A DNA stretch of 64,000 nucleotides from a virus. How positions within the stretch are numbered: the stretch's first letter is position 1; every line of letters begins with the position of its first letter. The position numbers and the translations under genes were made by a program. The notes beneath the pieces were generated by a model. The model did not search any database and was not told the origin of the DNA. It saw nothing but the letters and a program-made list of their open reading frames with translations. The stretch spans positions 32,001 through 96,000 of the IMG/VR virus record IMGVR_UViG_3300046168_000070; one strand, 5' to 3'. Positions 8,417-41,230 of the stretch are shown piece by piece.

Positions 8417-9520
8417 ATGAATACTTATGGTTTACTAAGCTCGAGCTCTACTTTATCTCAATCGTCTAGCGAAAACTCTTTTAGAAGTTTATCTAAGAAA
8501 GCTTTTAATGCAAAACCTTTGAATGAAGCTATCTCGGAGCTTAGCCAAATCATAATGCATAATGCAATATGTGCTCAAAACCATATTAAATTTTGTGCCC
8601 AAAATAACATTAAACTATATTCTATCTTCAACGACTTAATTCCTTTATTGCATGATGATTCGATCCCTTGCTCCATTAAAGATCTCGCTGATTATGAATC
8701 AATAATAAAAGAACTTAAAAAAATAGGAATTATAGCTAGAAAATTTAATGTTAAAATTTGTGTCGAGTTAAGAAAGCAAGTTCTATTATCAGGCACAGAA
8801 ACAACTATTAAAAAATCTTTAAATTTAATTAATTTATGGTCTACAATTTTTGATTTATTTGAGCTAGATCAAGGATTGGAATCACCGATTATTATACAGG
8901 TGAATAATTCTGTTAATGAGTCGGAAGAGCTAAAATTAAAAAACGTAATTGATAAATTTTATAATTCTTTTGAAAACCTACCAGAATCTTCTCAATCAAG
9001 AGTTTCAGTTACAAACGAAAAAGAAGGTTGCTGGAATTGTCAAAATTTATTTAAATGGCTTCATCTTTATTGTGGTGGAGAATATGGTAAGTTTTTTCCT
9101 TTAGTTTATAACAACTTAAATCACAAATTAAACCCTTCTGTTATTGGAGGGAAAGAAGTTTCTGATAAGCAGAATGTCGAAGCTTTTAAACACACTTGGC
9201 CAGAAAATAATACACCTTGCTTCTTTTGGGATGAAGAACCTTTAGATGATGCTTTTTCGAAAGAAATACCGTCTTTTGGAAAGGACATAGGGTGGATATG
9301 TTGCGGTATTAATAGCGATCAGAATATTTTTCAAATGAAAGGTGTCGTCATAAAAGATGAAAACCTTAATCTTAGCAGTTTTGATGACTTGCTCTCAGTT
9401 AAAGTTGAGATTGACGATAGCGAGATTAACGAAACAGAAATTGATATTGCTCATAAAAAGATTAAAGAAGCTCTTGAAACTAAAGGTGGTAGCGGCTTCA
9501 ACTCGATATACGGGTTCTAG
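8417..9520 (+). CDS. Degenerate UV-damage endonuclease (UvsE)-like TIM-barrel protein
   Basis: N...QNHIKFCAQNNIKLYSIFNDLIP and ELKKIGIIARKFNVK resemble UvsE, but the HP/H/D-HH/H metal ligands are missing. Confidence 0.6.
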   Translation: MNTYGLLSSSSTLSQSSSENSFRSLSKKAFNAKPLNEAISELSQIIMHNAICAQNHIKFCAQNNIKLYSIFNDLIPLLHDDSIPCSIKDLADYESIIKELKKIGIIARKFNVKICVELRKQVLLSGTETTIKKSLNLINLWSTIFDLFELDQGLESPIIIQVNNSVNESEELKLKNVIDKFYNSFENLPESSQSRVSVTNEKEGCWNCQNLFKWLHLYCGGEYGKFFPLVYNNLNHKLNPSVIGGKEVSDKQNVEAFKHTWPENNTPCFFWDEEPLDDAFSKEIPSFGKDIGWICCGINSDQNIFQMKGVVIKDENLNLSSFDDLLSVKVEIDDSEINETEIDIAHKKIKEALETKGGSGFNSIYGF

Positions 9521-26768: not shown

Positions 26769-26795
26769 TTTAATCATAATTGTCTATTGATTGTT

Positions 26796-29066
26796 ATGAA
26801 AATTTTAATCTTATTGTTTTTATCTTCAATTCTCTGTTTTGGGGATACGCTATATTTTAATAACGGAAAAAATTTGAAAGGCGATATTGTAGAGGCGAAT
26901 GCTACACATGCGTTAATTAAAAGATCAAGTGATCTGCAATTATTCAGGATTTCAATTGATTCTTTAACAAAAGACAACCAAGCTTATATTAAAAATAATT
27001 TTCCACCGAGTCATGAAGCTTTGCCTAAATTTAAAAGACCATTATCTGATAGAGATTTAAAAACTCATGCTTATTATATTGATAGCTTAATTGAAGCAAA
27101 ACTCAGAGGGTATAATCTTAGGCCAAATAAGGAGGTCGATGATGCTATATATTTACGTAGAGCATATCTTAAAATTATCGGGAGGACGCCTTCTTTAGCA
27201 GAAGTAAACTCTTTTTTTGATGATAAAGATAAAAATAAAAGATCAAAATTAGTTGATCAGTTATTAGGTAGTGAAGGATATGTAAGTCACTGGTTTAATT
27301 TTTGGGCGGATATATTAAGAATTAAAGATAGGTTAACCAATAGAATATCTGGAGTGCCTTATAAGAATTATGTAAAAGAGTTTATATCAAATAACAGACC
27401 ATACGATGAATGGGTTAGAGAAATGTTATCCTCATCAGGCTCTCTATGGATTAAAGGCAACGAAGGAGTAAGTTATTTTGCTCGTGATGTCAATATGCCT
27501 CTTGATAGCATGGCTAACACAGTACGTATTTTTTTAGGCACAAGCCTCGAGTGCGCCCAATGCCATGACCATCCTTTTGATCGTTGGACTCAAAAACAAT
27601 TTTACGAAATGGCTGCATTCACAAGTGGCTCGACTAATTTGAGAACAAAAAGTCCAGAAAATTTAAGCGTCTTAAATAGATTAGCGAGAGATGAAAGAAG
27701 AAAATTAGAGCAGTCCGATCAACCTCAAAAATCTAGACAGCTACAAAATAGCATAAGAGATATCCAAGATATTTTGCAAACTGGATTAACGAGTTTAGGT
27801 AACGGAAAGATCAGTTTGCCTAAAGATTATCAGTATGATAATGCAAAACCTAATGAAGCTTTACTAGGGAAAACGATTTTCGGTAAAGAGGTAGATATTA
27901 AAACTGTTGCTCCAAATGCAGGTTCTAGGGAAATTTATGCTAATTGGTTGGCGTCTGAATCAAATCCAAGATTTACAGCTGTTATTGTAAATCGCTTGTG
28001 GAAGGAAGTTTTTGGATTAGCTTTAATAGAGCCAATTGATAATATGTTCGATGACACTCTTGCTACCGACCCAAAATTGCAATTACATCTCGAAAAAGTC
28101 ATGGTTGCCTTAAATTATGATTTAAGAGAGTTTTTAAGAATATTGTATAACACTAAAACATTCCAAAAAGAGTCTGTAACCAGAGATGTAATACCTAAGG
28201 ATAATAAAGATCAATCTATGCCTGTAGAAGTTGAGTGGATTATCGCAGGGCCAAATACCAAAGCTCAGTCTAAAGGAGCTGTCCCTTATTTTTATCAAGG
28301 GCCGATATTAGAAAGAATGAGTGGGGAGCAAATTTGGGATTCTTTAGTAAATTTAACATTTGATAATATAGATTCTAGAAAATTAGAGCAAAATACAAAA
28401 GGTTACGATCAATTTCAAACTCTTTCAGCCATGAGTGGAGAAGAATTATTTGAAGATATAATGGCTAAAATCAATAAAACCGAAAAGCCTAAAGCTGCAA
28501 GTAAATCAAAATTTGGTGAGCCGATAAATACTGATTGCCCTATCAAGCCTGGAAGAGCAATCGACCCAACATTATTAGCTCTCAATGAGAACGGTGAAAC
28601 TTTGGCATTTTGCTGTGAATCTTGTGTTGATAAATACAAATCTCAAAAGAAAGCTAGAGAGCAAGAGTACAAGCAGAATTTTGTCAAAGATAGAAATTCA
28701 GTTAGAGCTTCCGAACTATCTTCTCCCGCTCCGATTGGTCATTTAATCAGAGAGTTTGGCGGCTCAGATAGAGAGCAGATCGAAAACGCAAACAAAAGCG
28801 CTTCAGCGACACAAGTATTAAATTTATTAAATGGGTTCGTTGAAACAAGGTTATTGAAAAATAAAAACTTTGAAGTTATTAAAGCAATTGAATCTCAAAA
28901 GTCGTTAAGTGATAAAATAACAGTAGGTTATAAATATATATTAAACCGAGAGCCTACTTCTAAAGAATTAAGGATATTTACTGATAATTTAAAAAATACG
29001 AAAGATGCATATAAAGAAATAATATGGGTATTAATTAATAGTCATGAATTTATGTTTGTTAGGTAA
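26796..29066 (+). CDS. Secreted DUF1549/DUF1553 (PSD1/PSCyt2-type) protein with SHD1-like N-domain and YHS-like insert
   Basis: Signal peptide; YLRRAYLKIIGRTPS, W.D.LR, FLGTSLECAQCHDHPFDRWTQKQFYEMAAF, NPRFTAVIVNRLWKEVFG..L.EP.D, Q.L.LLNG, WVLINSHEF. Confidence 0.9.
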   Translation: MKILILLFLSSILCFGDTLYFNNGKNLKGDIVEANATHALIKRSSDLQLFRISIDSLTKDNQAYIKNNFPPSHEALPKFKRPLSDRDLKTHAYYIDSLIEAKLRGYNLRPNKEVDDAIYLRRAYLKIIGRTPSLAEVNSFFDDKDKNKRSKLVDQLLGSEGYVSHWFNFWADILRIKDRLTNRISGVPYKNYVKEFISNNRPYDEWVREMLSSSGSLWIKGNEGVSYFARDVNMPLDSMANTVRIFLGTSLECAQCHDHPFDRWTQKQFYEMAAFTSGSTNLRTKSPENLSVLNRLARDERRKLEQSDQPQKSRQLQNSIRDIQDILQTGLTSLGNGKISLPKDYQYDNAKPNEALLGKTIFGKEVDIKTVAPNAGSREIYANWLASESNPRFTAVIVNRLWKEVFGLALIEPIDNMFDDTLATDPKLQLHLEKVMVALNYDLREFLRILYNTKTFQKESVTRDVIPKDNKDQSMPVEVEWIIAGPNTKAQSKGAVPYFYQGPILERMSGEQIWDSLVNLTFDNIDSRKLEQNTKGYDQFQTLSAMSGEELFEDIMAKINKTEKPKAASKSKFGEPINTDCPIKPGRAIDPTLLALNENGETLAFCCESCVDKYKSQKKAREQEYKQNFVKDRNSVRASELSSPAPIGHLIREFGGSDREQIENANKSASATQVLNLLNGFVETRLLKNKNFEVIKAIESQKSLSDKITVGYKYILNREPTSKELRIFTDNLKNTKDAYKEIIWVLINSHEFMFVR

Positions 29067-29428
29067 TCCCATCTATTATATTTAAAAAAATAAATCATAT
29101 CATCTTTTATATAAATCCAACCCCATTTCTCTGTATAAAAATACCCTTTATAGCTTGGAGCATTATATATCCATCCTAATTTTTCAGAATACAACCAACT
29201 TCTAGAAATAGATTTTTTGTAAGTTCCATAAACTCTCCCCAAAGTTTTCATTGTGAACCACAAGCCTTTCGGTTTTTTACCGCATCTTGCCATCCATTCG
29301 CCAAGATCTAACGGTTGAGTAGATTTAGCTTGATTTTTGCACCAATCGCAATTATCTAGAAAATCTTTTCTTTCCACCCTTGCTTCTAGACAAATATATA
29401 TTAATATAAAAAGAAGCGAAAACCTCAT
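29042..29428 (-). CDS. Small putative secreted protein with W.Y....GW.Y repeats
   Basis: Hydrophobic N-terminus, WLYSEKLGWIY / YFYTEKWGWIY; preceded by GTGTAA-N8-ATG. Confidence 0.6.
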   Translation of the reverse strand: MRFSLLFILIYICLEARVERKDFLDNCDWCKNQAKSTQPLDLGEWMARCGKKPKGLWFTMKTLGRVYGTYKKSISRSWLYSEKLGWIYNAPSYKGYFYTEKWGWIYIKDDMIYFFKYNRWDYLTNINS

Positions 29429-29436
29429 ATATTGTA

Positions 29437-29442
29437 TTACAC
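29437..29442 (-). promoter_or_regulatory. GTGTAA motif
   Basis: GTGTAA-8 nt-ATG(29428). Confidence 0.65.
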
Positions 29443-29465
29443 TTGTGTTGATTTTTCTTTAAAAT

Positions 29466-29471
29466 GTGTAA
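29466..29471 (+). promoter_or_regulatory. GTGTAA motif before DUF1501 gene
   Basis: GTGTAA-10 nt-ATG(29482). Confidence 0.55.
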
Positions 29472-29481
29472 TAATAATATT

Positions 29482-30774
29482 ATGAACTTAAATACAATTG
29501 ATGAATTAGGGAGAAGAGAATTTATAGCGCATGCCGCAAAAGCATGCTTCGGAGTAGGGCTTATGCCGATGGCAGGAGCTTATATTAACAATACAGTGAG
29601 CGCTCTTGAGCCTAGTACTAGAGTTCCGACAGCTAGGCATGTCATTTATTTAAATATGTCAGGAGCGATGTCGCATCTTGACACATTTGCCCCAAAGCCT
29701 GACGCTCCTGATATTCAAGGGCCTACTAAATCAATTGCAACAAGCGCTGATGGAGTTATTTTATCCGAAAATCTACCAAAAACAGCGAAACTAATGCATC
29801 TTGGGTCAATTATCAAAACAATGAATACTAGTCAAGGAGCCCACATGCAAGCAAGTTATTTAATGCACACTAGTTATCTTAAGAGGGGCACAATTGTGCA
29901 TCCTACATTCGGGAGTTGGGTGTCAAAGCTTTCAGGTTCAATGAATAAAACAATACCTAGCAATGTTAAGATTGGAGGTGGAGGAGGCGGAGCTGGCTTT
30001 CTAGAGTCTAAATACGGCGCTCTTCCTATTAACAACCCTTCCTCAGGTCTAGCTAATAGTAAAATGGCTTCGTATTTAGATCATGAGCATTTTCAAAGCA
30101 GAATATCTATTGCCGAGCAATTGAATCAAAATTTTTCTACAGAATTTCCATTAAAACAAGTAAGAGCTTACAGTGACTTATATAAAGACGCAATAAAATT
30201 AATGAATAGTAATGATCTAAATGCTTTTGATATCACTAAAGAGCCAGCATCTGCAAGTGATCTTTATGGAAACACTAACTTCGGTAAAGGTTGCTTGTTA
30301 GCTAAAAGGCTAGTTGAGCATGGTGTTAGGTATGTAGAAGTTACGCGAGGAGGTTGGGATACTCATGATAATAACTTTGAAAGAGTTGCTGCAAATTGTG
30401 CTGATATCGATCAAGCTTTAAGCGGACTTCTTATTGATTTAGACAGAAGAGGGCTTTTATCAGAGACTTTGGTTGTATTAACCTCTGAATTTGGCAGAAC
30501 GCCAAACATAAATGGAAGAGACGGGAGAGACCATTGGCCTTATTGCTTCACAGCTTTTCTCGCAGGAGGTGGAGTGAAAGGTGGATTTACTTATGGTGAG
30601 ACAGACAAAACAGGCAGATCTCCTGTTGAAGGAAAACCTATCAAGCCAGAAGATTTGAATGCTACTATAGCTCATACCCTTGGTTTATCTTTAAATAATT
30701 ATCAATATTCCCCGTCAGGAAGACCTTTTACTATAGCCCATAAAGGCGAGCCTTTGTTTGATATTTTATCTTGA
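29482..30774 (+). CDS. DUF1501 protein with twin-arginine signal
   Basis: GRREF Tat motif, VIYLNMSGAMSHLDTF.PKP, FGKGCLLAKRLVEHGVRYVEV, GGWDTH, SEFGRTP, GRDHWP, AGGGVKGG, SGRP. Confidence 0.93.
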   Translation: MNLNTIDELGRREFIAHAAKACFGVGLMPMAGAYINNTVSALEPSTRVPTARHVIYLNMSGAMSHLDTFAPKPDAPDIQGPTKSIATSADGVILSENLPKTAKLMHLGSIIKTMNTSQGAHMQASYLMHTSYLKRGTIVHPTFGSWVSKLSGSMNKTIPSNVKIGGGGGGAGFLESKYGALPINNPSSGLANSKMASYLDHEHFQSRISIAEQLNQNFSTEFPLKQVRAYSDLYKDAIKLMNSNDLNAFDITKEPASASDLYGNTNFGKGCLLAKRLVEHGVRYVEVTRGGWDTHDNNFERVAANCADIDQALSGLLIDLDRRGLLSETLVVLTSEFGRTPNINGRDGRDHWPYCFTAFLAGGGVKGGFTYGETDKTGRSPVEGKPIKPEDLNATIAHTLGLSLNNYQYSPSGRPFTIAHKGEPLFDILS

Positions 30775-32062: not shown

Positions 32063-33076
32063 ATGAACAATAAATTCCTATCTATTCTTGAATATTCTTT
32101 AAATAAGTTTATGCCATATGTTTTAATTAGTTTTTTAGTATTTTTTGAATTTGGATTTTATAAAGTTCAGCCATATATAATTATGGGGCTTTTGTGTTTT
32201 TTAGACAAACATTCTTTTAGAGTAGGTTATGCCGTAGCTCTTTGCGAAGAAAGGGGAGTTGATCTTGAGAAATGGGACAAATAAAAGTGTAATCTTATTT
32301 GTGCAAGAGAGAATAATAAATTTGCTATTAACTATAATCGGGTGTTGTGTAGTTTTTTATATTTTTAAACAGAATCACGAAATAACATATTTAAAAGATA
32401 CCATTAAAATACAGCATGAAGCAATAGAAAGACAAAATGTTTTAATTGATTTTCAAAAAAGAATCATGTATCCAAATAATCCGCAAAATGAATTTCAGCC
32501 AACTTATAAATAAGCAATCTTACAAAAAGATATTTAATAAACTATATTCCAGCCAACTTAAATACGAAGAACCTAAAAGTATTAGAGAAATCGATGTAGA
32601 AGCTAGAAGTGCATGGGATTTCTTATTACAAGCTCAACCCCAAAGATCAAAGCACGAAATCCATGTTGGATTCTGTAAAGATTTCCAAAGCGAAGATTTT
32701 CCTTGTGCAGAGCTTCGTGATACCAAAAGCAAGCTTTTTCATAATTTCAATGAAGCTCCTTGGCAAGAAGTCTTGGGATCAAATATAGTAAATTCGTCAA
32801 GTTTGTCAGATGAAGAAGTTTGTGCTACAATTTTTTGGTTCTTGACTATGAACTCTTTTAAGCCAAATAAAGAACTTAATCATGCTTAGAAAATTTTGGC
32901 TTATATGGGCTAGAACTCTCGATCATAGAGTGGGAAGAACAGACAATGATGAACCTGATATACCTATATTATCATTAAGAGACGCTCAAATAAGTCTTTT
33001 ATTAAGAAGTTTAATTGTAATAGTTAATTTAATAACTTGTTTTTTCATAGTCGCAAATATAATAAAAAATTGGTAA
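32063..33076 (+). other. Run of four small hypothetical genes (32063..32284, 32301..32513, 32488..32889, 32882..33076), several with TM helices
   Basis: ORF track, with starts adjusted to promoter context. Confidence 0.6.
32287..32292 (+). promoter_or_regulatory. GTGTAA motif
   Basis: GTGTAA-8 nt-GTG(32301). Confidence 0.6.
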
Positions 33077-33529
33077 ATGAATAGTAGTGAAAAAAGGTTC
33101 TACGACATGTGTGTGTCCAGAAATTGGAGTGTCGAAAAAGCCTCAAAAAATCAGGACATGCACGAACATTGGGATTTTAAAGTTAGAGATTCTTTAATTG
33201 ATGTAAAAGGATTCAAGAAAACCTCTAGGTCTGATGCCTTTTTTAATCACGATGAAATTTGGATAGAGTTGCAAAATGTGCGAGGCAATAAAGGTTGGTT
33301 GCGTGGAAAAGCTGATTACATAGCTTTTGAGCATTCAAAACATTTTTTGATAGTAAGTCGCCAAGATTTACTAGATTGGTGCAAATCTAAAATTACAAAT
33401 CGATCTTTTGTTTCAAGTCCGAAAGAAGCTTTGTATAGACTTTATCAGCGTAAAAATAGAAAAGACATTATATCTATAATTAAAACAGAAGATTTTGTGA
33501 AGGATGTAAAAACTTGGGTTTTAAAATGA
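33077..33529 (+). CDS. PD-(D/E)XK-like nuclease-fold phage protein; paralog of 11265..11747
   Basis: HWDF.V...IDVKG...IWIEL.NV.G.KGWL.GKADYIAFE. Confidence 0.55.
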   Translation: MNSSEKRFYDMCVSRNWSVEKASKNQDMHEHWDFKVRDSLIDVKGFKKTSRSDAFFNHDEIWIELQNVRGNKGWLRGKADYIAFEHSKHFLIVSRQDLLDWCKSKITNRSFVSSPKEALYRLYQRKNRKDIISIIKTEDFVKDVKTWVLK

Positions 33530-33532
33530 ATC

Positions 33533-33790
33533 ATGTATGACAGCGGCTTAAATAATGAATTCGAAAAAGCTCATCAGAAAGGTTTGCATAGAGGATTTGA
33601 TTTAGGCTGGTCATATAAAGGAAAGTTTGACAGGCAAATAATACAAGACAAAATCATAGAGCTTGAAAAGAAATATGAGGCTAGAAAATCTAAAAAAACT
33701 TTGAATGAAATAAATATTCTACGAACTGTTTTAACGCAAATAAAAGACCATAAATGTAACAGAGAAAACATCACTTTAAACTTTTGGTAA
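33533..33790 (+). CDS. Hypothetical protein
   Basis: 85 aa ORF in the operon. Confidence 0.6.
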   Translation: MYDSGLNNEFEKAHQKGLHRGFDLGWSYKGKFDRQIIQDKIIELEKKYEARKSKKTLNEINILRTVLTQIKDHKCNRENITLNFW

Positions 33791-33796
33791 GTGTAA
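33791..33796 (+). promoter_or_regulatory. GTGTAA motif before SpeD-like/Ate-like operon
   Basis: GTGTAA-8 nt-GTG(33805). Confidence 0.6.
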
Positions 33797-33804
33797 TATA
33801 TTTT

Positions 33805-34194
33805 GTGGAACATAAACATCTTTTAGTTAATGCTACTTTCGAGCAGACCCCATTTACGAATACAGATTTCACAAATAAATGGCTTTTAAAAATTGTTAAA
33901 TTAATTGACATGGAAGTTTTGCATGAACCTGTCTCGGTGAGATGTGATGAAAAAAATAACGAGGGCGTTAGTGGGTTCTGTTTAATAACAACAAGTCATT
34001 TATCTTTGCATTCTTGGGAGAAAAAAACTCCGAATTTATTACAACTTGATGTCTATAGTTGTAAAGATTTTGACCCTCATTTAATTGAGTATGAAATTAA
34101 AAAATTTCATCCAATATCTCTTGGGTTAAAATTCCTAGATAGAAGAGTACGAAATACTAAAGGATGGTCAATGTTTGATGAAAGCAAGGCATGA
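33805..34194 (+). CDS. Pyruvoyl-dependent decarboxylase proenzyme, SpeD-like (variant cleavage site TTSH)
   Basis: GVSGFCLITTSHLSLHSWE...LQLDVYSCK.F; GTG start 8 nt after GTGTAA. Confidence 0.85.
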   Translation: MEHKHLLVNATFEQTPFTNTDFTNKWLLKIVKLIDMEVLHEPVSVRCDEKNNEGVSGFCLITTSHLSLHSWEKKTPNLLQLDVYSCKDFDPHLIEYEIKKFHPISLGLKFLDRRVRNTKGWSMFDESKA

Positions 34195-34955
34195 GAATAT
34201 ATTTTAGGCATTACTCAGGAGCAATCACTGAATACGATTATTTATTTTTTGATTGCATGGCAGAAGTTCCGTTAGACGAAGAAGAGCGAGCTTTGCAGGA
34301 AGGATGGTTACCTGATGACTATTTTGCTCCTAAAAATGCAGTAAAATCCCATTGGTATCAAGCTCGACAAACAAGAATTGATTTAAGCAAATTTATTGAT
34401 ACTCGCAGTAGTCGAAAGGCTAGAAAAAAATGCAAAGATATTGTGGTCAAATATACGAAAGCGAATAAAGCAAATATAGAAATTTTAAAAGATATATTTA
34501 ATAAATATTTTGAATACAGAAACTTTAAGCCTTGGAAGCTAGAGCCTCTACTAAGTTTAGAGATTGAGAGAAAACATTTTTTAATTTATTATTTAAATGA
34601 CGAACCTATTGCTTTTACATTTTTGAGAGATGTCGGAGAGAATAGTGTTTTCTCAACGCAGTTTGCGTGGAATTATGAAAATCCAAAATTATATTTAGGC
34701 AAATATGCAAACCTTGCAGAAATAGACTATTGTATTGCAAATAATAAAGATTATATGTATACAGGAGTAGGGTATGAAAAAGCTTGTATATATAAGTCTG
34801 ACTACCAAGGGTTTCAATTTTGGAACGGAGAAGCGTGGTCGAATAACACAGAAGATTATAAATGGTTATGCGAGAGAGATTCTAAAATTGAAAAAACAAA
34901 AGATTTAGATAAAATAAAAAGATACGATGATAAAAATTTTTTTATAAATGATTAA
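34191..34955 (+). CDS. Ate/Bpt-like aminoacyl-tRNA-protein transferase
   Basis: LQEGW, WYQARQTRIDL, YYLNDEPIAF, WNYENPKLYLGKYANLAEI, YMYTG...C.YK..YQGFQFW.G..W, resembling ATE_N/ATE_C. Confidence 0.65.
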   Translation: MRIYFRHYSGAITEYDYLFFDCMAEVPLDEEERALQEGWLPDDYFAPKNAVKSHWYQARQTRIDLSKFIDTRSSRKARKKCKDIVVKYTKANKANIEILKDIFNKYFEYRNFKPWKLEPLLSLEIERKHFLIYYLNDEPIAFTFLRDVGENSVFSTQFAWNYENPKLYLGKYANLAEIDYCIANNKDYMYTGVGYEKACIYKSDYQGFQFWNGEAWSNNTEDYKWLCERDSKIEKTKDLDKIKRYDDKNFFIND

Positions 34956-35400
34956 AGATTATATTGATTATATTTCCCTGCAAAGAAAAAAGATTGGCGG
35001 TCATGCGATATGCCCTTTTGCTAAAGCTTTTTTGGATAAAGTGCAAATAATAGAGTCCACAAACTTTTGGATTGACGCTACAGAATGTATGGAAAATGAA
35101 GAGCATCCAATGCTTTACCTTATATATGGAGACAAGGATAAATATAGCACAGAATGGCTTGAAAAATTTTGCCAAATAAATAAAAAGTATTCACGCAGTA
35201 AAGATCTTTGGTTAATATGGGATCATCCTGATCAAATAAATAAAATAAATGGAATTGAGACAAATAATAAAGAATATGCTATTCTGTTAATACAAAAATT
35301 ATCTGAATTAAATAAATATTCTGAAAAATTACATAAAACAAATTATTATGAATTTTGGGATAAGGAATATTATAATAAAATAGTAAAAAGTCGATCATGA
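34948..35400 (+). CDS. DUF1415-like protein
   Basis: GGHAICPFAK, WDHP motifs. Confidence 0.4.
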   Translation: MIKDYIDYISLQRKKIGGHAICPFAKAFLDKVQIIESTNFWIDATECMENEEHPMLYLIYGDKDKYSTEWLEKFCQINKKYSRSKDLWLIWDHPDQINKINGIETNNKEYAILLIQKLSELNKYSEKLHKTNYYEFWDKEYYNKIVKSRS

Positions 35401-35795
35401 GCAAGAAAGACTTGCCTGATAATTATGTACCAAATGCTTATGCGTTACCTTATGCAAGCAATCTGTCTGCTCCTGTCATAAAACCCAATCATAGCCTCGG
35501 AGGTTGGAAAGTTGGAGCGGTTCACTCTGCAAATAAGCATTATGAAGAGCGATTTGATAAATTAAAAAAAGAGCTTGAAGATTTGACGGAAGATGTCAAG
35601 TGGAACGAAATAATATTTAATGCAGAAATGAAGATGAAACCTGTCATTGGAAATATATATCATTTATACCAAAAAGATAATGGGAAATATTTTATGAGTT
35701 TATTTGCTCCAAATGAATGCACATGGGGAGATAAACATAAAGGTAGTTTTAAACTTAATTATGACAACAGATGGGATAAAGTAATTTTTTCTTGA
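35397..35795 (+). CDS. DUF2452-like protein
   Basis: YASNLSAPVIKP, KPVIGNIYHLY, SLFAPNE. Confidence 0.6.
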   Translation: MSKKDLPDNYVPNAYALPYASNLSAPVIKPNHSLGGWKVGAVHSANKHYEERFDKLKKELEDLTEDVKWNEIIFNAEMKMKPVIGNIYHLYQKDNGKYFMSLFAPNECTWGDKHKGSFKLNYDNRWDKVIFS

Positions 35796-35820
35796 CTTTT
35801 CTCAAATAATATGATATATT
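35792..35820 (+). promoter_or_regulatory. sigma70 promoter (leaderless, speD)
   Basis: TTGACT-17-TATATT, ATG +7. Confidence 0.8.
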
Positions 35821-35827
35821 TATACCT

Positions 35828-36232
35828 ATGCACTTAGGCAGTCACGAATTAGTTGAATTTTATAATTGCGATGAAGATATTTTAAAAAATTCTAATTTGA
35901 TAAAAAAAATATTTATTAAATCTGCTAAACTAGGTAATGCAAATATAGTCAATAGTCTATTTCATTCTTTTAGTCCGTATGGAGTCACAGGAGTCTTAGT
36001 GATCGCAGAAAGTCATATGAGTATTCATACATGGCATGAGTTTAATTATTGTGCCGTTGATATATTTTCTTGTTGCGATAAATTAAATAATAAAATTGTT
36101 TTAGACAACTTGAAATACGAACTCTTTAGCGACAAATATACATCAAAATTAATTAACAGAGGGGACAAAAATTTTATCAAGCAAATTGCAAATAATAACT
36201 TGACAAATAAACAAAAATCTGTCAGAATATAA
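35828..36232 (+). CDS. speD: S-adenosylmethionine decarboxylase proenzyme
   Basis: HSFSPYGVTGVLVIAESHMSIHTW.E..YCAVDIFSC. Confidence 0.9.
   Translation: MHLGSHELVEFYNCDEDILKNSNLIKKIFIKSAKLGNANIVNSLFHSFSPYGVTGVLVIAESHMSIHTWHEFNYCAVDIFSCCDKLNNKIVLDNLKYELFSDKYTSKLINRGDKNFIKQIANNNLTNKQKSVRI
36200..36228 (+). promoter_or_regulatory. sigma70 promoter (leaderless)
   Basis: TTGACA-17-CAGAAT, ATG +6. Confidence 0.7.
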
Positions 36233-36234
36233 AT

Positions 36235-37300
36235 ATGGAGATTAAAAAAGAATTAAAAAACGCAACTTTTATATATGATGACGAGAAAAAAGTATTCACC
36301 ATTATGGAAGCTGATGGCTTTAATGGTTATATTGAATTAAATAAAATTTATGCTTTTTCTTTTATGCGTTTTGTAATCAGAATGGCTCAAAGAAATTGGC
36401 TTAAAAGTGCAGATTCTTTTAATAAAACTGAAGAACTTTTAGAATCTATTGAAGAGGAAGAAGATGATCCAAATCAACTAGAGCTTTTTAATTAATAAAT
36501 AATAAATAATATGAATAATAAATCATTCGATATAGTTTGTGCGTCTGAAGTAGAAGAATTTTTCTATGAAGACTCTAATATGCCCGTACCCGAAGGCGAG
36601 CCTGTTGGTGTAGAATTCCATTCTCCAACCAATTCAAACCTAGTTTTATCTAAAGGAGTTTATTTTTCTCACGAAAATCTATTCTTAGATTAATTTTTGT
36701 TTGACAAGCTGATCGTTGTGTGCAATGCTTATTACATGATGAAAACAGAATATATCAAACTAACAGACTTGTGGAACGAAGGCGAATACGCTGAAGTAGG
36801 AAATATCATTAACGAAGAAAATTGGAGTGCGTCAAGGGTTGCTGAATTTTGTGCGTACTTTAATAAATACCTTGGAGTTAATCAATTAAATCTTTTATAT
36901 AAGTTTCTATAATATGGATGATTTAAGTAATGAAATAGCTTGGGATAGCTATGAATTCTATACCGAGCAATTATTTAATCTCGAACAGGATCATTTATCA
37001 AATATGGACAAAGTAACAAATGTTTTGCAAGGCGGGTCGTACTGCAACAAGCAAGATCACTTAGAAATATTTAATAAATCCCTTGAAGTAACTGCTCAAT
37101 TAATAGTATTATATAATAAACAACTATCATCTATTCAAGATATGCTAATAACTTTATCTGACGAAAAAGATGAGCAGTTGAAAAATCGAACAATTAATTC
37201 TTTAAATGTTTTGACTCAATGGACAAACGATCTCCGAGATGATACAAATAAGTATAGGCAAGATTTAAATAAACTAATAAAAGAATATGAAGAGAGGTAG
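36235..37300 (+). other. Four small hypothetical genes (36235..36495, 36511..36693, 36736..36912, 36914..37300)
   Basis: ORF track; two have their own sigma70 promoter. Confidence 0.6.
36701..36729 (+). promoter_or_regulatory. sigma70 promoter (leaderless)
   Basis: TTGACA-17-AATGCT, ATG +6. Confidence 0.6.
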
Positions 37301-40219: not shown

Positions 40220-41230
40220 ATGTCACAACAAATACTAGGCTTAACTTGCATTAGCGAGCAACTCAAAGAGAAAGACAAAGTTAAATATTCCTTTAGGACT
40301 ATGACTCGCAAAAGATTTAATGACTTGTGTAGTTCTCAAGGCAGGGATGAAGCTATCAATCAATTATCTGAAAGAATTTTGCACAATGTTGTTGTTACTC
40401 AATATATTGTCAATCATTGCCATGCCTCGGACATTAGGCATTATCGTCTTAGCTCTGCTCTTTTCCCTCTCCTTACCGATCAGACTTTGGAAATTTCTAT
40501 GGCAGAATTGCCTCACAAAGCAAGAATCGAAAAAGGGTTAGAGTTTATAGGTTTAATCGCCAAACGCTTTAATATATCAATAGGATCGCATCCCGATCAG
40601 TTTAATGTTCTTGCGTCTCCCGATAGGGATAAAGTTAATCGCACAATAAATGAACTGAATTTTCAAGCAAGAGTTCTCGATATGGTCGGATTACCTCAAG
40701 ACCATACTGCTCCAATGAATATACATATTAATTATTCGCCCAAAGCGGATGAGACGCTAGAAGTTGTTGCTACTAGATTCTTTCGCAATCTTTCTATGTG
40801 CGATAGAGGTGTTTACAATCGAATAACTATTGAGAACGAAGACAAAGGTTTCTTTAATGTAGATAACTGCATTAAATTTAGCGAGTATTTATTTGAAACA
40901 TTCAACGCAAATATTCCTGTTTGTTTTGACAATTTACATCATACTTGCAATCCATCAGAGGAATCATCTATTAAATGGCAAGCCGAGCGTTGTGCATATA
41001 CATGGGTTAATAATGGAGAAGGAGACAATCATTTTATTTCTCCTGTCTTTCATTGGTCAGAGGGTAAACCCGAAAAGCCTCGTTCTCATGCAGACTATGT
41101 CGCATTCGGTAATTTTCCACCACATATTGCTATTGACCCTCAATATCCTGCAATTTTCGAGGTAGAAACAAAGGCAAAGGATAAAGCTATTAAACTCTTA
41201 CAAAAACAAATGGCAGGGGGGTTAAGCTAA
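40220..41230 (+). CDS. uvsE: UV-damage endonuclease UvsE/UvdE
   Basis: LGLTCIS, HYRLSSALFP, SHPDQFNVLAS, MNIH, IENED, FDNLHH, FHWSE, HADY, EVETKAKDKA. Confidence 0.93.
   Translation: MSQQILGLTCISEQLKEKDKVKYSFRTMTRKRFNDLCSSQGRDEAINQLSERILHNVVVTQYIVNHCHASDIRHYRLSSALFPLLTDQTLEISMAELPHKARIEKGLEFIGLIAKRFNISIGSHPDQFNVLASPDRDKVNRTINELNFQARVLDMVGLPQDHTAPMNIHINYSPKADETLEVVATRFFRNLSMCDRGVYNRITIENEDKGFFNVDNCIKFSEYLFETFNANIPVCFDNLHHTCNPSEESSIKWQAERCAYTWVNNGEGDNHFISPVFHWSEGKPEKPRSHADYVAFGNFPPHIAIDPQYPAIFEVETKAKDKAIKLLQKQMAGGLS

What the first reader, a model, noticed from the sequence alone, without database searches (positions are those of the whole stretch)
34191..34955. Phage-encoded Ate/Bpt-like aminoacyl-tRNA-protein transferase: possible hijack of N-degron proteolysis
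Seen: motif order of the Ate/Bpt family (GW...R..RI.L; Y....LG.Y..L.EI; Y.Y.G...C.YK..Y...W), though the N-terminal Cys cluster is not evident. Known: bacterial Bpt adds Leu to N-terminal Asp/Glu to create ClpS-ClpAP degrons, and eukaryotic ATE1 adds Arg. Inference: the phage could tag host proteins (including defence proteins) or its own scaffolds for degradation; as a tRNA-dependent GNAT-fold enzyme it could instead aminoacylate lipids or small molecules.
Basis: partly seen in the sequence, partly recalled or inferred. Interest (0 to 1): 0.75.

Follow-up and report, generated by a model that had tools for sequence, protein, structure and literature searches.

The report
Phage tRNA-transferase paired with haem-like protein
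This uncultured 194-kb marine phage encodes a real but remodelled relative of the enzymes that move an amino acid from charged tRNA onto protein ends; it lacks the residue those enzymes use to pick acidic protein ends and is locked to a small haem-oxygenase-like gene, so it more likely builds a modified arginine/polyamine-type compound than tags host proteins for destruction.

Summary
ORF 34191-34955 (+, 254 aa) is a full-length, divergent member of the ATE1/Bpt superfamily: Pfam ATE_C is above its cut-off, a profile-profile match to canonical two-domain Bpt-like proteins gives 99.3% (E 2e-20), and the AF2 model matches human ATE1 best (Z 16.6, 235 residues).

It is not a canonical Bpt/ATE1:
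- The Cys cluster is gone.
- The Arg of the GxRRxG motif, which binds acidic N-termini, is Leu here and never basic in 75 relatives.
- NCBIfam equivalog scores are far below cut-off.

The catalytic Tyr-Lys, the basic tRNA helix and a Glu at ATE1's arginine-pocket position are kept.

The family is almost entirely viral: 269 IMG/VR contigs, 8 MAG contigs, no cultured phage. Its downstream gene (34948-35400) is a DUF6875/YqcI-like protein with an invariant Cys-Pro. In 79 of 80 viral loci that gene sits next to an ATE-like gene, in three different arrangements.

This mirrors the argolaphos pair AglC (Arg-tRNA-dependent GNAT) and AglA (thiolate-haem hydroxylase). Here the pair is co-translated with an arginine-decarboxylase-like SpeD paralogue.

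The N-degron reading is therefore weakened, and a tRNA-dependent small-molecule pathway is favoured but unproven. The scan has met this module before in other phage genomes.

The parts
33805..34194 (+). Divergent SpeD/AdoMetDC-like pyruvoyl decarboxylase. It is probably neofunctionalised and of the arginine-decarboxylase type. The listed ORF begins at TTG 33784; the likely start is GTG 33805, 8 nt after a GTGTAA motif.
   Evidence: Pfam AdoMet_dc scores 48.3 bits; TIGR03330 scores only 40 against a cut-off of 75.65. The processing-site motif reads TSH instead of ESH. The best cultured relatives are pelagiphage 'AdoMetDC' genes, including HTVC201P at 34% identity, E 3e-19. That protein was shown to be a pyruvoyl arginine decarboxylase (PMC9992855). 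The gene lies directly upstream of the ATE-like gene in the 18 close loci (L006-L023) and 2.4 kb downstream of it in L030 and L031, 20 loci in all.
34191..34955 (+). ATE1/Bpt-like, Cys-less aminoacyl-tRNA transferase homologue (254 aa); this is the finding.
   Evidence: Y201-K202 align with klAte1 Y303-K304. E177 aligns with klAte1 E277. L40 aligns with the conserved Arg of canonical GxRRxG. Residues 66-84 hold 8 Lys/Arg.
34948..35400 (+). Conserved partner: a 150-aa DUF6875/DUF1415/YqcI-like protein (phrog_10325) with an invariant Cys22-Pro23; a candidate thiolate-haem protein.
   Evidence: phrog_10325 matches at E 6e-24. Of 25 diverse relatives, 16 hit Pfam DUF6875 (best E 3e-5), 2 hit DUF1415 and 1 hits YqcI_YcgG. 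The AF2 model has pLDDT 84.5 with a 4-stranded sheet and flanking helices. The only PDB match at Z>=5 is AglA, Z 6.6 over 138 of 150 residues. The gene is next to an ATE-like gene in 79 of 80 viral loci.
35397..35795 (+). DUF2452 protein (132 aa), translationally coupled to the partner gene (ATGA overlap).
   Evidence: Pfam DUF2452 matches at E 6e-13. It is present within 6 kb of the ATE-like gene in 10 close relatives. Its function is unknown.
35828..36232 (+). Canonical class-1b AdoMetDC (SpeD/SpeH-like), the second SpeD homologue of the cluster.
   Evidence: Pfam AdoMet_dc scores 113 bits and TIGR03330 scores 116 bits against a cut-off of 75.65. The ESH...HTW motif is kept. Both copies were confirmed in the genome.

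Best explanation
ORF 34191-34955 encodes a divergent, cysteine-free member of the ATE1/Bpt branch of GNAT-fold aminoacyl-tRNA transferases.

Shown here: it keeps the fold and the catalytic Tyr-Lys pair. It also keeps a basic helix at the position of ATE1's tRNA-binding helix and a Glu at the position that binds the arginine side chain of Arg-tRNA in ATE1.

Inferred: it takes an aminoacyl group, most likely arginyl or another basic residue, from charged host tRNA and puts it on an amine acceptor that is not an acidic protein N-terminus.

It works as one half of a conserved two-gene viral module. The other half is the DUF6875/YqcI-like Cys-Pro protein encoded just downstream, probably a thiolate-haem oxygenase.

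By analogy with the argolaphos enzymes, the pair most likely makes and oxidises an aminoacyl-amide small molecule. In that pathway AglC uses Arg-tRNA to arginylate aminomethylphosphonate, and AglA N-hydroxylates the product.

In this phage lineage the module is co-translated with an arginine-decarboxylase-like SpeD paralogue and followed by a true AdoMetDC. The acceptor may therefore be agmatine or a polyamine. This last step is the most speculative.
For: Family and fold:
- Pfam ATE_C is above its cut-off.
- hhalign of 75 relatives against canonical ATE_N+ATE_C proteins gives 99.3%, E 2e-20.
- The AF2 model has pLDDT 86. Its best full-length structural match is ATE1 (Z 16.6 and 15.2), followed by other tRNA-dependent transferases: MprF, FemX, L-PGS, LFTR and Sbb17.

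Residues kept:
- K202 is kept in 74/75 relatives and Y201 in 65/75 (W in 8 more); E177 in 59/75, mapped onto klAte1 Y303, K304 and E277 (PMC9351520).
- Residues 66-84 hold 8 Lys/Arg.

Acceptor site changed:
- Canonical GxR46RxG aligns to G38-W39-L40-P41. Position 40 is never basic in 75 sequences.
- The Cys cluster is lost.
- 43 of 80 partner-linked relatives are GNAT-core-only proteins of about 140 aa that lack the N-terminal part.

Module:
- The partner gene is adjacent in 31 of 82 ATE-like loci. Conversely, 79 of 80 partner loci hold an ATE-like gene (69 within 100 nt).
- There are three arrangements: 22 co-directional, 14 convergent and 43 partner-first. They occur on siphovirus-like and T4-like backbones.

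Partner identity:
- C22-P23 is invariant.
- There are sub-threshold Pfam hits to DUF6875, DUF1415 and YqcI.
- AglA is the only PDB match at Z>=5.
- DUF6875 ('cytochrome P422') and AglA are both Cys-ligated haem enzymes acting on amino acids (bioRxiv 10.64898/2025.12.11.692455; PMC12866846).

Precedent:
- AglC + ArgRS + tRNA make AMPn-Arg, the substrate of AglA (PMC12866846).
- The argolaphos cluster's two GNAT-superfamily proteins, AlpF and AlpO, are read as aminoacyl-tRNA peptide ligases, and AlpF hits PF13480 (PMC8976061); that AlpF is AglC is my own inference from gene order. 13 of 75 ATE-like relatives also hit PF13480.
- VlmA, DhpH, PacB and Orf11 are further small-molecule tRNA-dependent GNATs (PMC12945691).

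Context: the upstream SpeD paralogue is closest to the pelagiphage HTVC201P type, a proven arginine decarboxylase (PMC9992855).
Against: No activity, haem binding or product has been measured for any member.
- The window's own partner protein has no Pfam hit; only its relatives do, below threshold.
- The AglA match (Z 6.6) is in the range where common folds occur.
- The P422 motif RxGxVCP is only partly kept (GGHAICP), and its substrate motifs are not seen.
- No ferredoxin was found in the phage genome to feed a haem oxygenase, so host partners would be needed.
- The ATE-like protein is closer to the protein-modifying ATE1/Bpt than to FemX-type small-molecule enzymes.
- A family-specific invariant Arg (R59, 74/75) could still bind a carboxylate, including an acidic N-terminus.
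- 51 of 82 ATE-like loci lack the partner; 36 loci carry an unrelated 66-aa neighbour and 10 an unrelated 216-aa neighbour.
- The decarboxylase link is confined to one lineage (20 loci).
Confidence: 0.42

Rival explanations
1. Protein N-terminal aminoacyl transferase with a new specificity. The enzyme still modifies protein or peptide N-termini of host, defence or phage proteins, creating degrons or altering function, but it recognises something other than Asp/Glu. The haem-like partner would act as a redox/O2 or haem sensor, or as a specificity subunit, echoing the haem and Fe-S control of ATE1.
For: - The nearest sequence and structure relatives over the full length are the protein-modifying ATE1 and Bpt.
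- Invariant R59 and R62 lie in the former acceptor domain.
- An Arg-type donor pocket (E177) would give N-terminal Arg, a secondary destabilising residue in bacteria that have Aat (established N-degron knowledge; PMC11441550).
- The same phage carries a true tmRNA (Rfam 130 bits), so tagging of proteins for proteolysis is in its repertoire.
- In T4-like phages the module sits among virion genes.
Against: - The acidic-N-terminus Arg is missing family-wide.
- 43 of 80 partner-linked forms lack the acceptor domain altogether.
- The phage genome has no ClpS, ClpP or Aat-type partner gene.
- The tight link to an amino-acid-oxygenase-like protein and to amino-acid decarboxylases is typical of metabolite pathways.
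Confidence: 0.3
2. The protein is a GNAT that no longer uses tRNA. It would be an acyl-CoA-dependent acyltransferase (for example a polyamine acetylase), or a non-catalytic scaffold for the partner protein.
For: - GNAT acetyltransferases, including polyamine acetyltransferases, appear in the fold list at Z 11-14.
- 4 of 75 relatives hit Acetyltransf_1.
- Polyamine genes flank the ORF.
- Phage spermidine N-acetyltransferases are known (PMC9992855).
Against: - The best profile and fold matches are tRNA-dependent enzymes over the whole length; acetyl-CoA GNATs match only 125-145 residues.
- The protein contains no [QR]xxGx[GA] CoA-pyrophosphate motif anywhere.
- The FemX/ATE1-type catalytic Lys is kept in 74/75 relatives, and the basic helix is present.
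Confidence: 0.1
3. The gene neighbourhood is inherited synteny without functional coupling. The ATE-like enzyme would act alone on an unknown acceptor such as lipid, cell-wall precursor or nucleic acid, and the Cys-Pro protein would do something unrelated.
For: - 51 of 82 ATE-like loci have no Cys-Pro partner.
- More distant Cys-Pro homologues in the cultured HMO-2011-type phages (Puniceispirillum phage HMO-2011, Roseobacter phage CRP-810) have no ATE-like neighbour within about 3 kb.
- MprF and FemX (lipid and cell-wall acceptors) are equally good fold matches for the GNAT core.
Against: 79 of 80 partner loci keep the pairing through three gene orders, through strand inversions with overlapping 3' ends, and on different phage backbones, while both proteins diverge to about 25-30% identity.
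Confidence: 0.13

Closest known systems
Eukaryotic arginyltransferase ATE1 (K. lactis 7WFX, S. cerevisiae 7TIF/8E3S, human 8TZV)
   Same: It is the best structural match over the whole protein (Z 16.6 and 15.2; 235 and 227 residues). The GNAT core is shared. Y201-K202 correspond to Y303-K304, W160 to W260, S155 to S255, and E177 to the Arg-pocket E277. A basic helix follows the conserved R-I-x-L motif (PMC9351520).
   Different: The phage protein is half the size (254 vs about 500 aa). It has no Zn/Fe-S Cys cluster, no R80-type Arg for acidic N-termini and no C-terminal extension. Sequence identity is 12-16%. It is viral and is paired with a haem-like protein.
Bacterial Bpt (Asp/Glu leucyltransferase; Pfam ATE_N + ATE_C; NCBIfam PRK01305 models)
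   Same: Size is similar (about 230-250 aa) and the domain order is collinear. hhalign gives 99.3% over 197 columns, and the NCBIfam models reach from residue 25 to 222.
   Different: Scores are 15-34 bits against equivalog cut-offs of 170-358. No Pfam ATE_N hit. The Cys motif and the GxRRxG Arg are lost. The donor pocket has Glu as in ATE1, where V. vulnificus Bpt has Gln (PMC9351520). No ClpS context.
Argolaphos pair AglC (Arg-tRNA-dependent GNAT ligase; I infer it to be AlpF, which hits PF13480) + AglA (YqcI/YcgG thiolate-haem N-hydroxylase) of Streptomyces monomycini
   Same: It has the same two-part logic: a tRNA-dependent aminoacyl transferase encoded beside a small Cys-ligated haem 'sandwich' protein that acts on an arginine derivative. 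AglA is the only PDB match to the partner model at Z>=5 (Z 6.6). 13 of 75 ATE-like relatives hit PF13480 (PMC12866846, PMC8976061).
   Different: The phage transferase belongs to the ATE/Bpt branch, not the double-GNAT FemX-like branch. The partner is 150 aa against 274 aa and only remotely similar. There are no phosphonate genes, and the product is unknown.
Cytochrome P422 (Pfam DUF6875) tryptophan hydroxylases
   Same: The partner family gives sub-threshold DUF6875 hits in 16 of 25 members. It has an invariant Cys-Pro in an N-terminal loop, like the haem ligand in RxGxVCP, and a 4-stranded sheet with flanking helices (bioRxiv 10.64898/2025.12.11.692455).
   Different: It is shorter (150-180 vs 180-300 aa). 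The Arg/Gly of the motif and the three Trp-binding motifs are not recognisable. The window's own protein has no Pfam hit.
Valanimycin early steps (valine decarboxylase, N-hydroxylase, VlmA seryl-tRNA transferase)
   Same: The gene logic of decarboxylase + N-oxygenase + tRNA-dependent GNAT acting on an amine is the same. The VlmA role is from PMC12945691; the decarboxylase and hydroxylase steps are from my own knowledge of the pathway.
   Different: All three proteins come from different families. This is an analogy only.

Membership tests
ATE1/Bpt aminoacyl-tRNA-protein transferases | ATE_C (PF04377) GNAT domain above Pfam gathering score | tested here: met
   29.8 bits against a cut-off of 25, residues 126-210. 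57 of 75 relatives also match.
ATE1/Bpt aminoacyl-tRNA-protein transferases | ATE_N (PF04376) domain | tested here: not met
   No PF04376 hit at E<=1, although hhalign aligns the N-terminal region (from residue 10) collinearly with canonical ATE_N.
ATE1/Bpt aminoacyl-tRNA-protein transferases | N-terminal Cys cluster (CxxC + CC) binding Zn or Fe-S | tested here: not met
   Canonical Cys57/59/62 align to K52/W55/A58. The protein's Cys residues are at 22, 81, 181, 199 and 227.
ATE1/Bpt aminoacyl-tRNA-protein transferases | Conserved Arg of GxRRxG (klAte1 R80) that binds acidic N-terminal residues | tested here: not met
   It aligns to L40. That column is L/I/A/C/T/S and never K/R in 75 relatives. 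The role of R80 is from PMC9351520; equating it with the first Arg of the motif is my inference from its invariance.
ATE1/Bpt aminoacyl-tRNA-protein transferases | Catalytic Tyr-Lys (klAte1 Y303-K304; FemX K305) | tested here: met
   Y201-K202 are present. K is kept in 74/75 relatives and Y/W in 73/75.
ATE1/Bpt aminoacyl-tRNA-protein transferases | Basic helix after the R-I-x-L motif for the tRNA acceptor stem | tested here: inconclusive
   Residues 66-84 of this protein hold 8 Lys/Arg, but the family median is only 4 and the minimum is 0.
ATE1/Bpt aminoacyl-tRNA-protein transferases | NCBIfam arginyltransferase equivalog score | tested here: not met
   The best score is 34.2 bits against a cut-off of 170.
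ATE1/Bpt aminoacyl-tRNA-protein transferases | Overall ATE1 fold | tested here: met
   8tzv_A gives Z 16.6, rmsd 4.2, 235 aligned. 7wfx_A gives Z 15.2, 227 aligned. Foldseek gives E 1e-9.
ATE1/Bpt aminoacyl-tRNA-protein transferases | Transfer of Arg/Leu from aminoacyl-tRNA to a protein N-terminus | not testable with these tools
   This needs an in vitro assay.
Acetyl-CoA-dependent GNAT acetyltransferases | [QR]xxGx[GA] CoA-binding motif and best match to acetyltransferase profiles | tested here: not met
   The motif does not occur in the protein. The protein has no Acetyltransf_1 hit. Acetyltransferases match only 125-145 residues at Z<=14.
FemABX / MprF (LPG_synthase_C) / LFTR tRNA-dependent transferases | Family profile match and double-GNAT or family-specific architecture | tested here: inconclusive
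   Fold matches reach Z 15-16 over 157-168 residues. This protein has no Pfam hit to those families. 13 of 75 relatives hit PF13480 and 1 hits LPG_synthase_C.
DUF6875 / cytochrome P422 (partner gene 34948-35400) | Pfam PF21780 match and RxGxVCP haem-ligand motif | tested here: inconclusive
   The window's protein has no Pfam hit. 16 of 25 relatives hit PF21780 at E 3e-5 or weaker. Cys-Pro is invariant, but the Arg and Gly of the motif are not in register.
YqcI/YcgG haem N-hydroxylases (AglA) | Sandwich fold with N-terminal Cys haem ligand | tested here: inconclusive
   9ub3_A gives Z 6.6, rmsd 3.9, 138 of 150 residues, and is the only match at Z>=5. One relative hits PF08892 at E 0.047. Haem binding was not tested.

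The most novel reading that the evidence does not exclude
Aquatic phages carry a widespread, virus-only pathway in which a stripped-down ATE-like enzyme diverts charged host tRNA (probably Arg-tRNA) to aminoacylate a small amine such as agmatine or a polyamine. A small thiolate-haem partner then oxidises the substrate or the product. This would give a phage-made N-hydroxy/arginyl-polyamine-type metabolite used during infection. It would be the first tRNA-dependent 'natural product' pathway of a virus.
Probability: 0.3. Interest if true: 0.85.

Novelty: new variant of a known kind. Interest (0 to 1): 0.66.

Why it matters
Aminoacyl-tRNA transferases outside translation are few and each has opened a field: N-degron pathways, cell-wall cross-bridges, lipid aminoacylation and tRNA-dependent antibiotics.

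Here a compact, cysteine-free branch occurs almost only in uncultured aquatic phages: 269 IMG/VR contigs, with more than 3,000 relatives of its partner protein in metagenomes. It is locked to a candidate haem oxygenase. No cultured phage carries the transferase, and no paper in the searched library mentions it.

If the module makes a modified arginine or polyamine compound, it would be a new kind of phage auxiliary metabolism that taps the host's charged tRNA pool. If instead it tags proteins, it would be an N-terminal tagging enzyme with a new specificity.

Either answer can be tested with two small soluble proteins.

Tried and rejected
- Complex prediction of the ATE-like protein with the Cys-Pro partner (alignments A1 + A3) gave no verdict: score 0.00, controls not run. 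It counts neither for nor against binding.
- tblastn of the ATE-like protein, of a short form and of 10 kb of DNA against 50,697 phage records found nothing. There was no PHROG hit either, so no cultured phage offers an annotation or a host.
- I looked for phage-encoded N-degron parts and helpers. The whole phage genome has no ClpS, ClpP, 2Fe-2S ferredoxin or tRNA gene.
- I tested whether the alternative neighbours of ATE-like genes (a 66-aa and a 216-aa protein family) are hidden relatives of the Cys-Pro partner or of each other. hhalign probabilities were 0.1-0.2%, there were no Pfam hits, and the Atlas gave nothing.
- A genome-contig scan to find a host through prophages returned only 8 MAG contigs from unrelated phyla, most likely binned phage DNA. 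The host stays unknown.
- Model coordinates are not exposed, so I could not measure whether R59/R62 face the K202 active site.
Full report
**What is there**

The window is bases 32001-96000 of a 193,844-bp IMG/VR virus record rated complete. It has low G+C (about 32%), a lambda-type tail protein L, glycan-synthesis genes and two UvdE homologues.

ORF 34191-34955 (+) encodes 254 aa. It is the second of four translationally coupled genes:
- a SpeD-like gene (33805-34194), whose stop overlaps the ATG as ATGA;
- the ORF itself;
- a 150-aa gene that starts 8 nt before the ORF's stop;
- a DUF2452 gene (35397-35795).

A second, canonical AdoMetDC gene follows after 32 nt. No terminator-like site lies within 32800-36600.

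**Is it an ATE/Bpt relative?**

Yes.
- Pfam ATE_C passes its gathering score (29.8 vs 25 bits).
- Seven NCBIfam arginyltransferase (Bpt) models match at E 1.8e-8 to 0.013 between residues 25 and 222, but at 15-34 bits against cut-offs of 170-358.
- Single-sequence PDB search is only marginal. A profile of 75 relatives hits yeast and K. lactis ATE1 at E about 1e-8.
- hhalign of that profile against four proteins carrying both Pfam ATE_N and ATE_C (P0224 and relatives) gives 99.3% probability, E 2e-20, over 197 collinear columns that include the N-terminal region.
- The AlphaFold model (pLDDT 86, pTM 0.84) matches human ATE1 best (Z 16.6, 235 residues) and K. lactis Ate1 (Z 15.2, 227 residues). 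The next matches are all tRNA-dependent transferases over the GNAT core: MprF, L-PGS, FemX, FemA, LFTR and Sbb17. Acetyl-CoA GNATs follow at lower Z and shorter coverage.

**What is kept and what is lost**

I used the ATE1 alignment and the mutagenesis in PMC9351520.

Kept:
- Y201-K202 correspond to the catalytic Y303-K304. K is present in 74/75 relatives.
- W160 corresponds to W260 and S155 to S255.
- E177 corresponds to E277, the acidic residue that binds the Arg side chain of Arg-tRNA. Per PMC9351520 V. vulnificus Bpt has Gln189 at this position; P0286, one of my four canonical sequences, also has Gln here. E177 is Glu in 59/75 relatives.
- Residues 66-84 carry 8 Lys/Arg at the position of ATE1's basic tRNA helix.

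Lost:
- The three aligned Cys of the metal cluster.
- The conserved Arg of GxRRxG. It aligns to L40 and is never basic in 75 relatives. I equate this Arg with klAte1 R80, whose charge is essential for Asp/Glu substrates.

R59 (74/75) is a new family-specific Arg; R62 (75/75) corresponds to an Arg that is also invariant in the four canonical sequences (R66 of P0224).

So the chemistry and the donor side look intact, and perhaps Arg-specific, while the acceptor side has been rebuilt.

**Distribution**

- 87 close relatives and 234 representative clusters exist in metagenome protein sets, many on contigs of 190-217 kb.
- 269 IMG/VR contigs encode a relative.
- Among 185,579 species genomes only 8 MAG contigs do.
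- No record among 50,697 deposited phage genomes does, and PHROGs has no family for it.
- I found no paper on phage arginyltransferase-like genes.

**The conserved partner**

Neighbour clustering over 82 loci showed the following:
- the downstream 150-aa gene (phrog_10325) in 31 loci;
- a 66-aa gene in 36 loci;
- a 216-aa gene in 10 loci;
- the divergent SpeD only in the close lineage plus two others (20 loci).

The reverse test is the strong one. Of the 80 best viral loci for the 150-aa protein, 79 hold an ATE-like gene, and the exception ends at the contig edge. In 69 loci the two matches are within 100 nt of each other.

Three arrangements occur:
- ATE then partner: 22 loci, on this phage's siphovirus-like backbone.
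- Convergent, with overlapping 3' ends: 14 loci, on T4-like backbones.
- Partner followed by a GNAT-core-only ATE-like protein of about 140 aa that lacks both the N-terminal 55 residues and the C-terminal W-rich segment: 43 loci.

Both proteins diverge to 23-30% identity across these classes. More distant homologues of the partner in the cultured phages HMO-2011 and CRP-810 have no ATE-like gene within the fetched 3-kb flanks. The link therefore holds for this subfamily, not for the whole superfamily.

**What the partner is**

- Its invariant residues are C22, P23, A25, D92, H93, P94, Q116, Y134, W137 and R149.
- The window's copy has no Pfam hit. Of 25 diverse relatives, 16 hit DUF6875 (best E 3e-5; 1e-6 in another set), 2 hit DUF1415 and 1 hits YqcI/YcgG.
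- A profile search finds 3,110 relatives, mostly unannotated proteins of 166-168 aa.
- DUF6875 has been renamed cytochrome P422. These are Cys-ligated haem enzymes with a four-stranded sheet between helices and the ligand in an RxGxVCP motif, and they hydroxylate tryptophan (bioRxiv 10.64898/2025.12.11.692455).
- The AF2 model of the partner (pLDDT 84.5) has four strands and flanking helices.
- Its only PDB match at Z>=5 is AglA (Z 6.6, 138 of 150 residues). AglA is a YqcI/YcgG 'sandwich' haem enzyme ligated by Cys44 (PMC12866846). Foldseek found nothing significant.

I therefore read the partner as a probable small thiolate-haem protein, with moderate confidence.

**Why a small-molecule pathway is favoured**

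AglA's substrate, AMPn-Arg, is made by AglC from Arg-tRNA (ArgRS + tRNA + ATP in the preparative reaction, PMC12866846). The argolaphos cluster encodes a PF13480 GNAT, AlpF, two genes from the YqcI gene, and PMC8976061 reads AlpF and a second GNAT, AlpO, as aminoacyl-tRNA peptide ligases; equating AlpF with AglC is my own inference from gene order. PF13480 is also hit by 13 of 75 ATE-like relatives. Other tRNA-dependent GNATs act on small amines or hydroxylamines: VlmA, DhpH/K, PacB and Orf11 (PMC12945691).

The phage pair reproduces this 'tRNA-dependent aminoacyl transferase + thiolate-haem oxygenase' logic. It also has an ATE1-like acidic donor pocket that suggests arginine.

In this lineage the upstream SpeD paralogue has a TSH rather than ESH processing motif and fails the AdoMetDC equivalog cut-off. 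It is closest to the pelagiphage HTVC201P type (34%, E 3e-19), which was shown to be a pyruvoyl arginine decarboxylase with no AdoMetDC activity (PMC9992855). A genome with one canonical and one neofunctionalised SpeD is a known pattern (PMC10407285).

All the named genes of the operon thus concern arginine or polyamine chemistry. The specific acceptor (agmatine or a polyamine) is my inference, not a result.

**Why the N-degron reading is weaker, but not excluded**

- The acidic-N-terminus Arg is absent.
- Most partner-linked forms lack the acceptor domain.
- The phage encodes no ClpS or ClpP and no tRNA.

Against dismissing it: ATE1 and Bpt remain the closest full-length relatives, R59/R62 could form a new acceptor pocket, and the phage does encode a genuine tmRNA (Rfam 130 bits, E 2e-52). 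Manipulating proteolytic tagging is therefore within its repertoire.

I give protein N-terminal modification with a new specificity 0.30. The small-molecule module gets 0.42, a tRNA-independent GNAT 0.10, and uncoupled neighbours 0.13.

**Earlier notes of this scan**

I looked at these after forming the reading above. They describe the same module in other phage genomes, with follow-up reports reaching compatible conclusions: a haem-oxygenase-like partner, minimal GNAT-only forms, the argolaphos analogy, and in one case an arginine-type amidinotransferase next to the pair. I verified the pairing, the minimal forms and the argolaphos papers myself. I did not check the amidinotransferase case.

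**Verdict**

The N-degron-hijack interpretation is only partly supported. The object is a new viral variant of the ATE/Bpt aminoacyl-tRNA transferases that works with a haem-like partner, and its product is unknown.

Noticed in passing
G000:C1:29003-29400 (+), about 2.6 kb before the window's first base; locus L179:304-701: The phage genome carries a full-length one-piece tmRNA. Rfam RF00023 scores 130 bits against a gathering score of 47, E 2e-52. ARAGORN reads the tag peptide as ANNYMATKTVLKLLA. No tRNA gene was found anywhere in the 194-kb genome.
   Followed up: partly
window 33784-33810: A GTGTAA motif lies exactly 8 nt before GTG 33805, the likely true start of the divergent SpeD gene. 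Relatives begin MEHK..., matching this start rather than the TTG at 33784. This fits the motif that other readers noted before several genes of this phage.
   Followed up: partly
window 26787-30774: Phage-borne PSCyt2/PSD1 (DUF1549/DUF1553) and DUF1501 genes give strong Pfam matches (E 2e-45 and 4e-108). This pair is typical of Planctomycetes and Verrucomicrobia, whereas the SpeD paralogue points to pelagiphage relatives. The host signals conflict.
   Followed up: no
window 8417-9520 and 40220-41230: There are two UvdE-type UV-damage endonuclease homologues in one phage: one strong (E 1e-34) and one divergent (E 3e-10).
   Followed up: no
L059:5170-5370, L003:261-566 and 34 other loci: ATE-like genes that lack the Cys-Pro partner are instead flanked by a conserved protein of about 66 aa (core motif G-x-I-W-L-V-T-D-Y-G), upstream or downstream and on either strand. 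It has no Pfam match and no detectable relation to the Cys-Pro family.
   Followed up: partly
L034:6756-7406, L024:142-777 and 8 other loci: A third alternative neighbour of ATE-like genes is a 216-aa protein with conserved Cys/His motifs (W-T-R-R-P-I-H-A-F-C-W and E-H-K-C-A-H). It has no Pfam or Atlas match.
   Followed up: partly
L173:5939-6274 and L174:2697-3032: In T4-like freshwater phage contigs, the partner + short ATE-like pair is followed by a DUF6614 gene and sits between the baseplate and portal genes and a radical-SAM/SMC-like block.
   Followed up: no
window 35397-35795: A DUF2452 protein, a family I recall as mainly eukaryotic, is translationally coupled to the Cys-Pro gene. It recurs near the module in 10 related phage contigs.
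   Followed up: no
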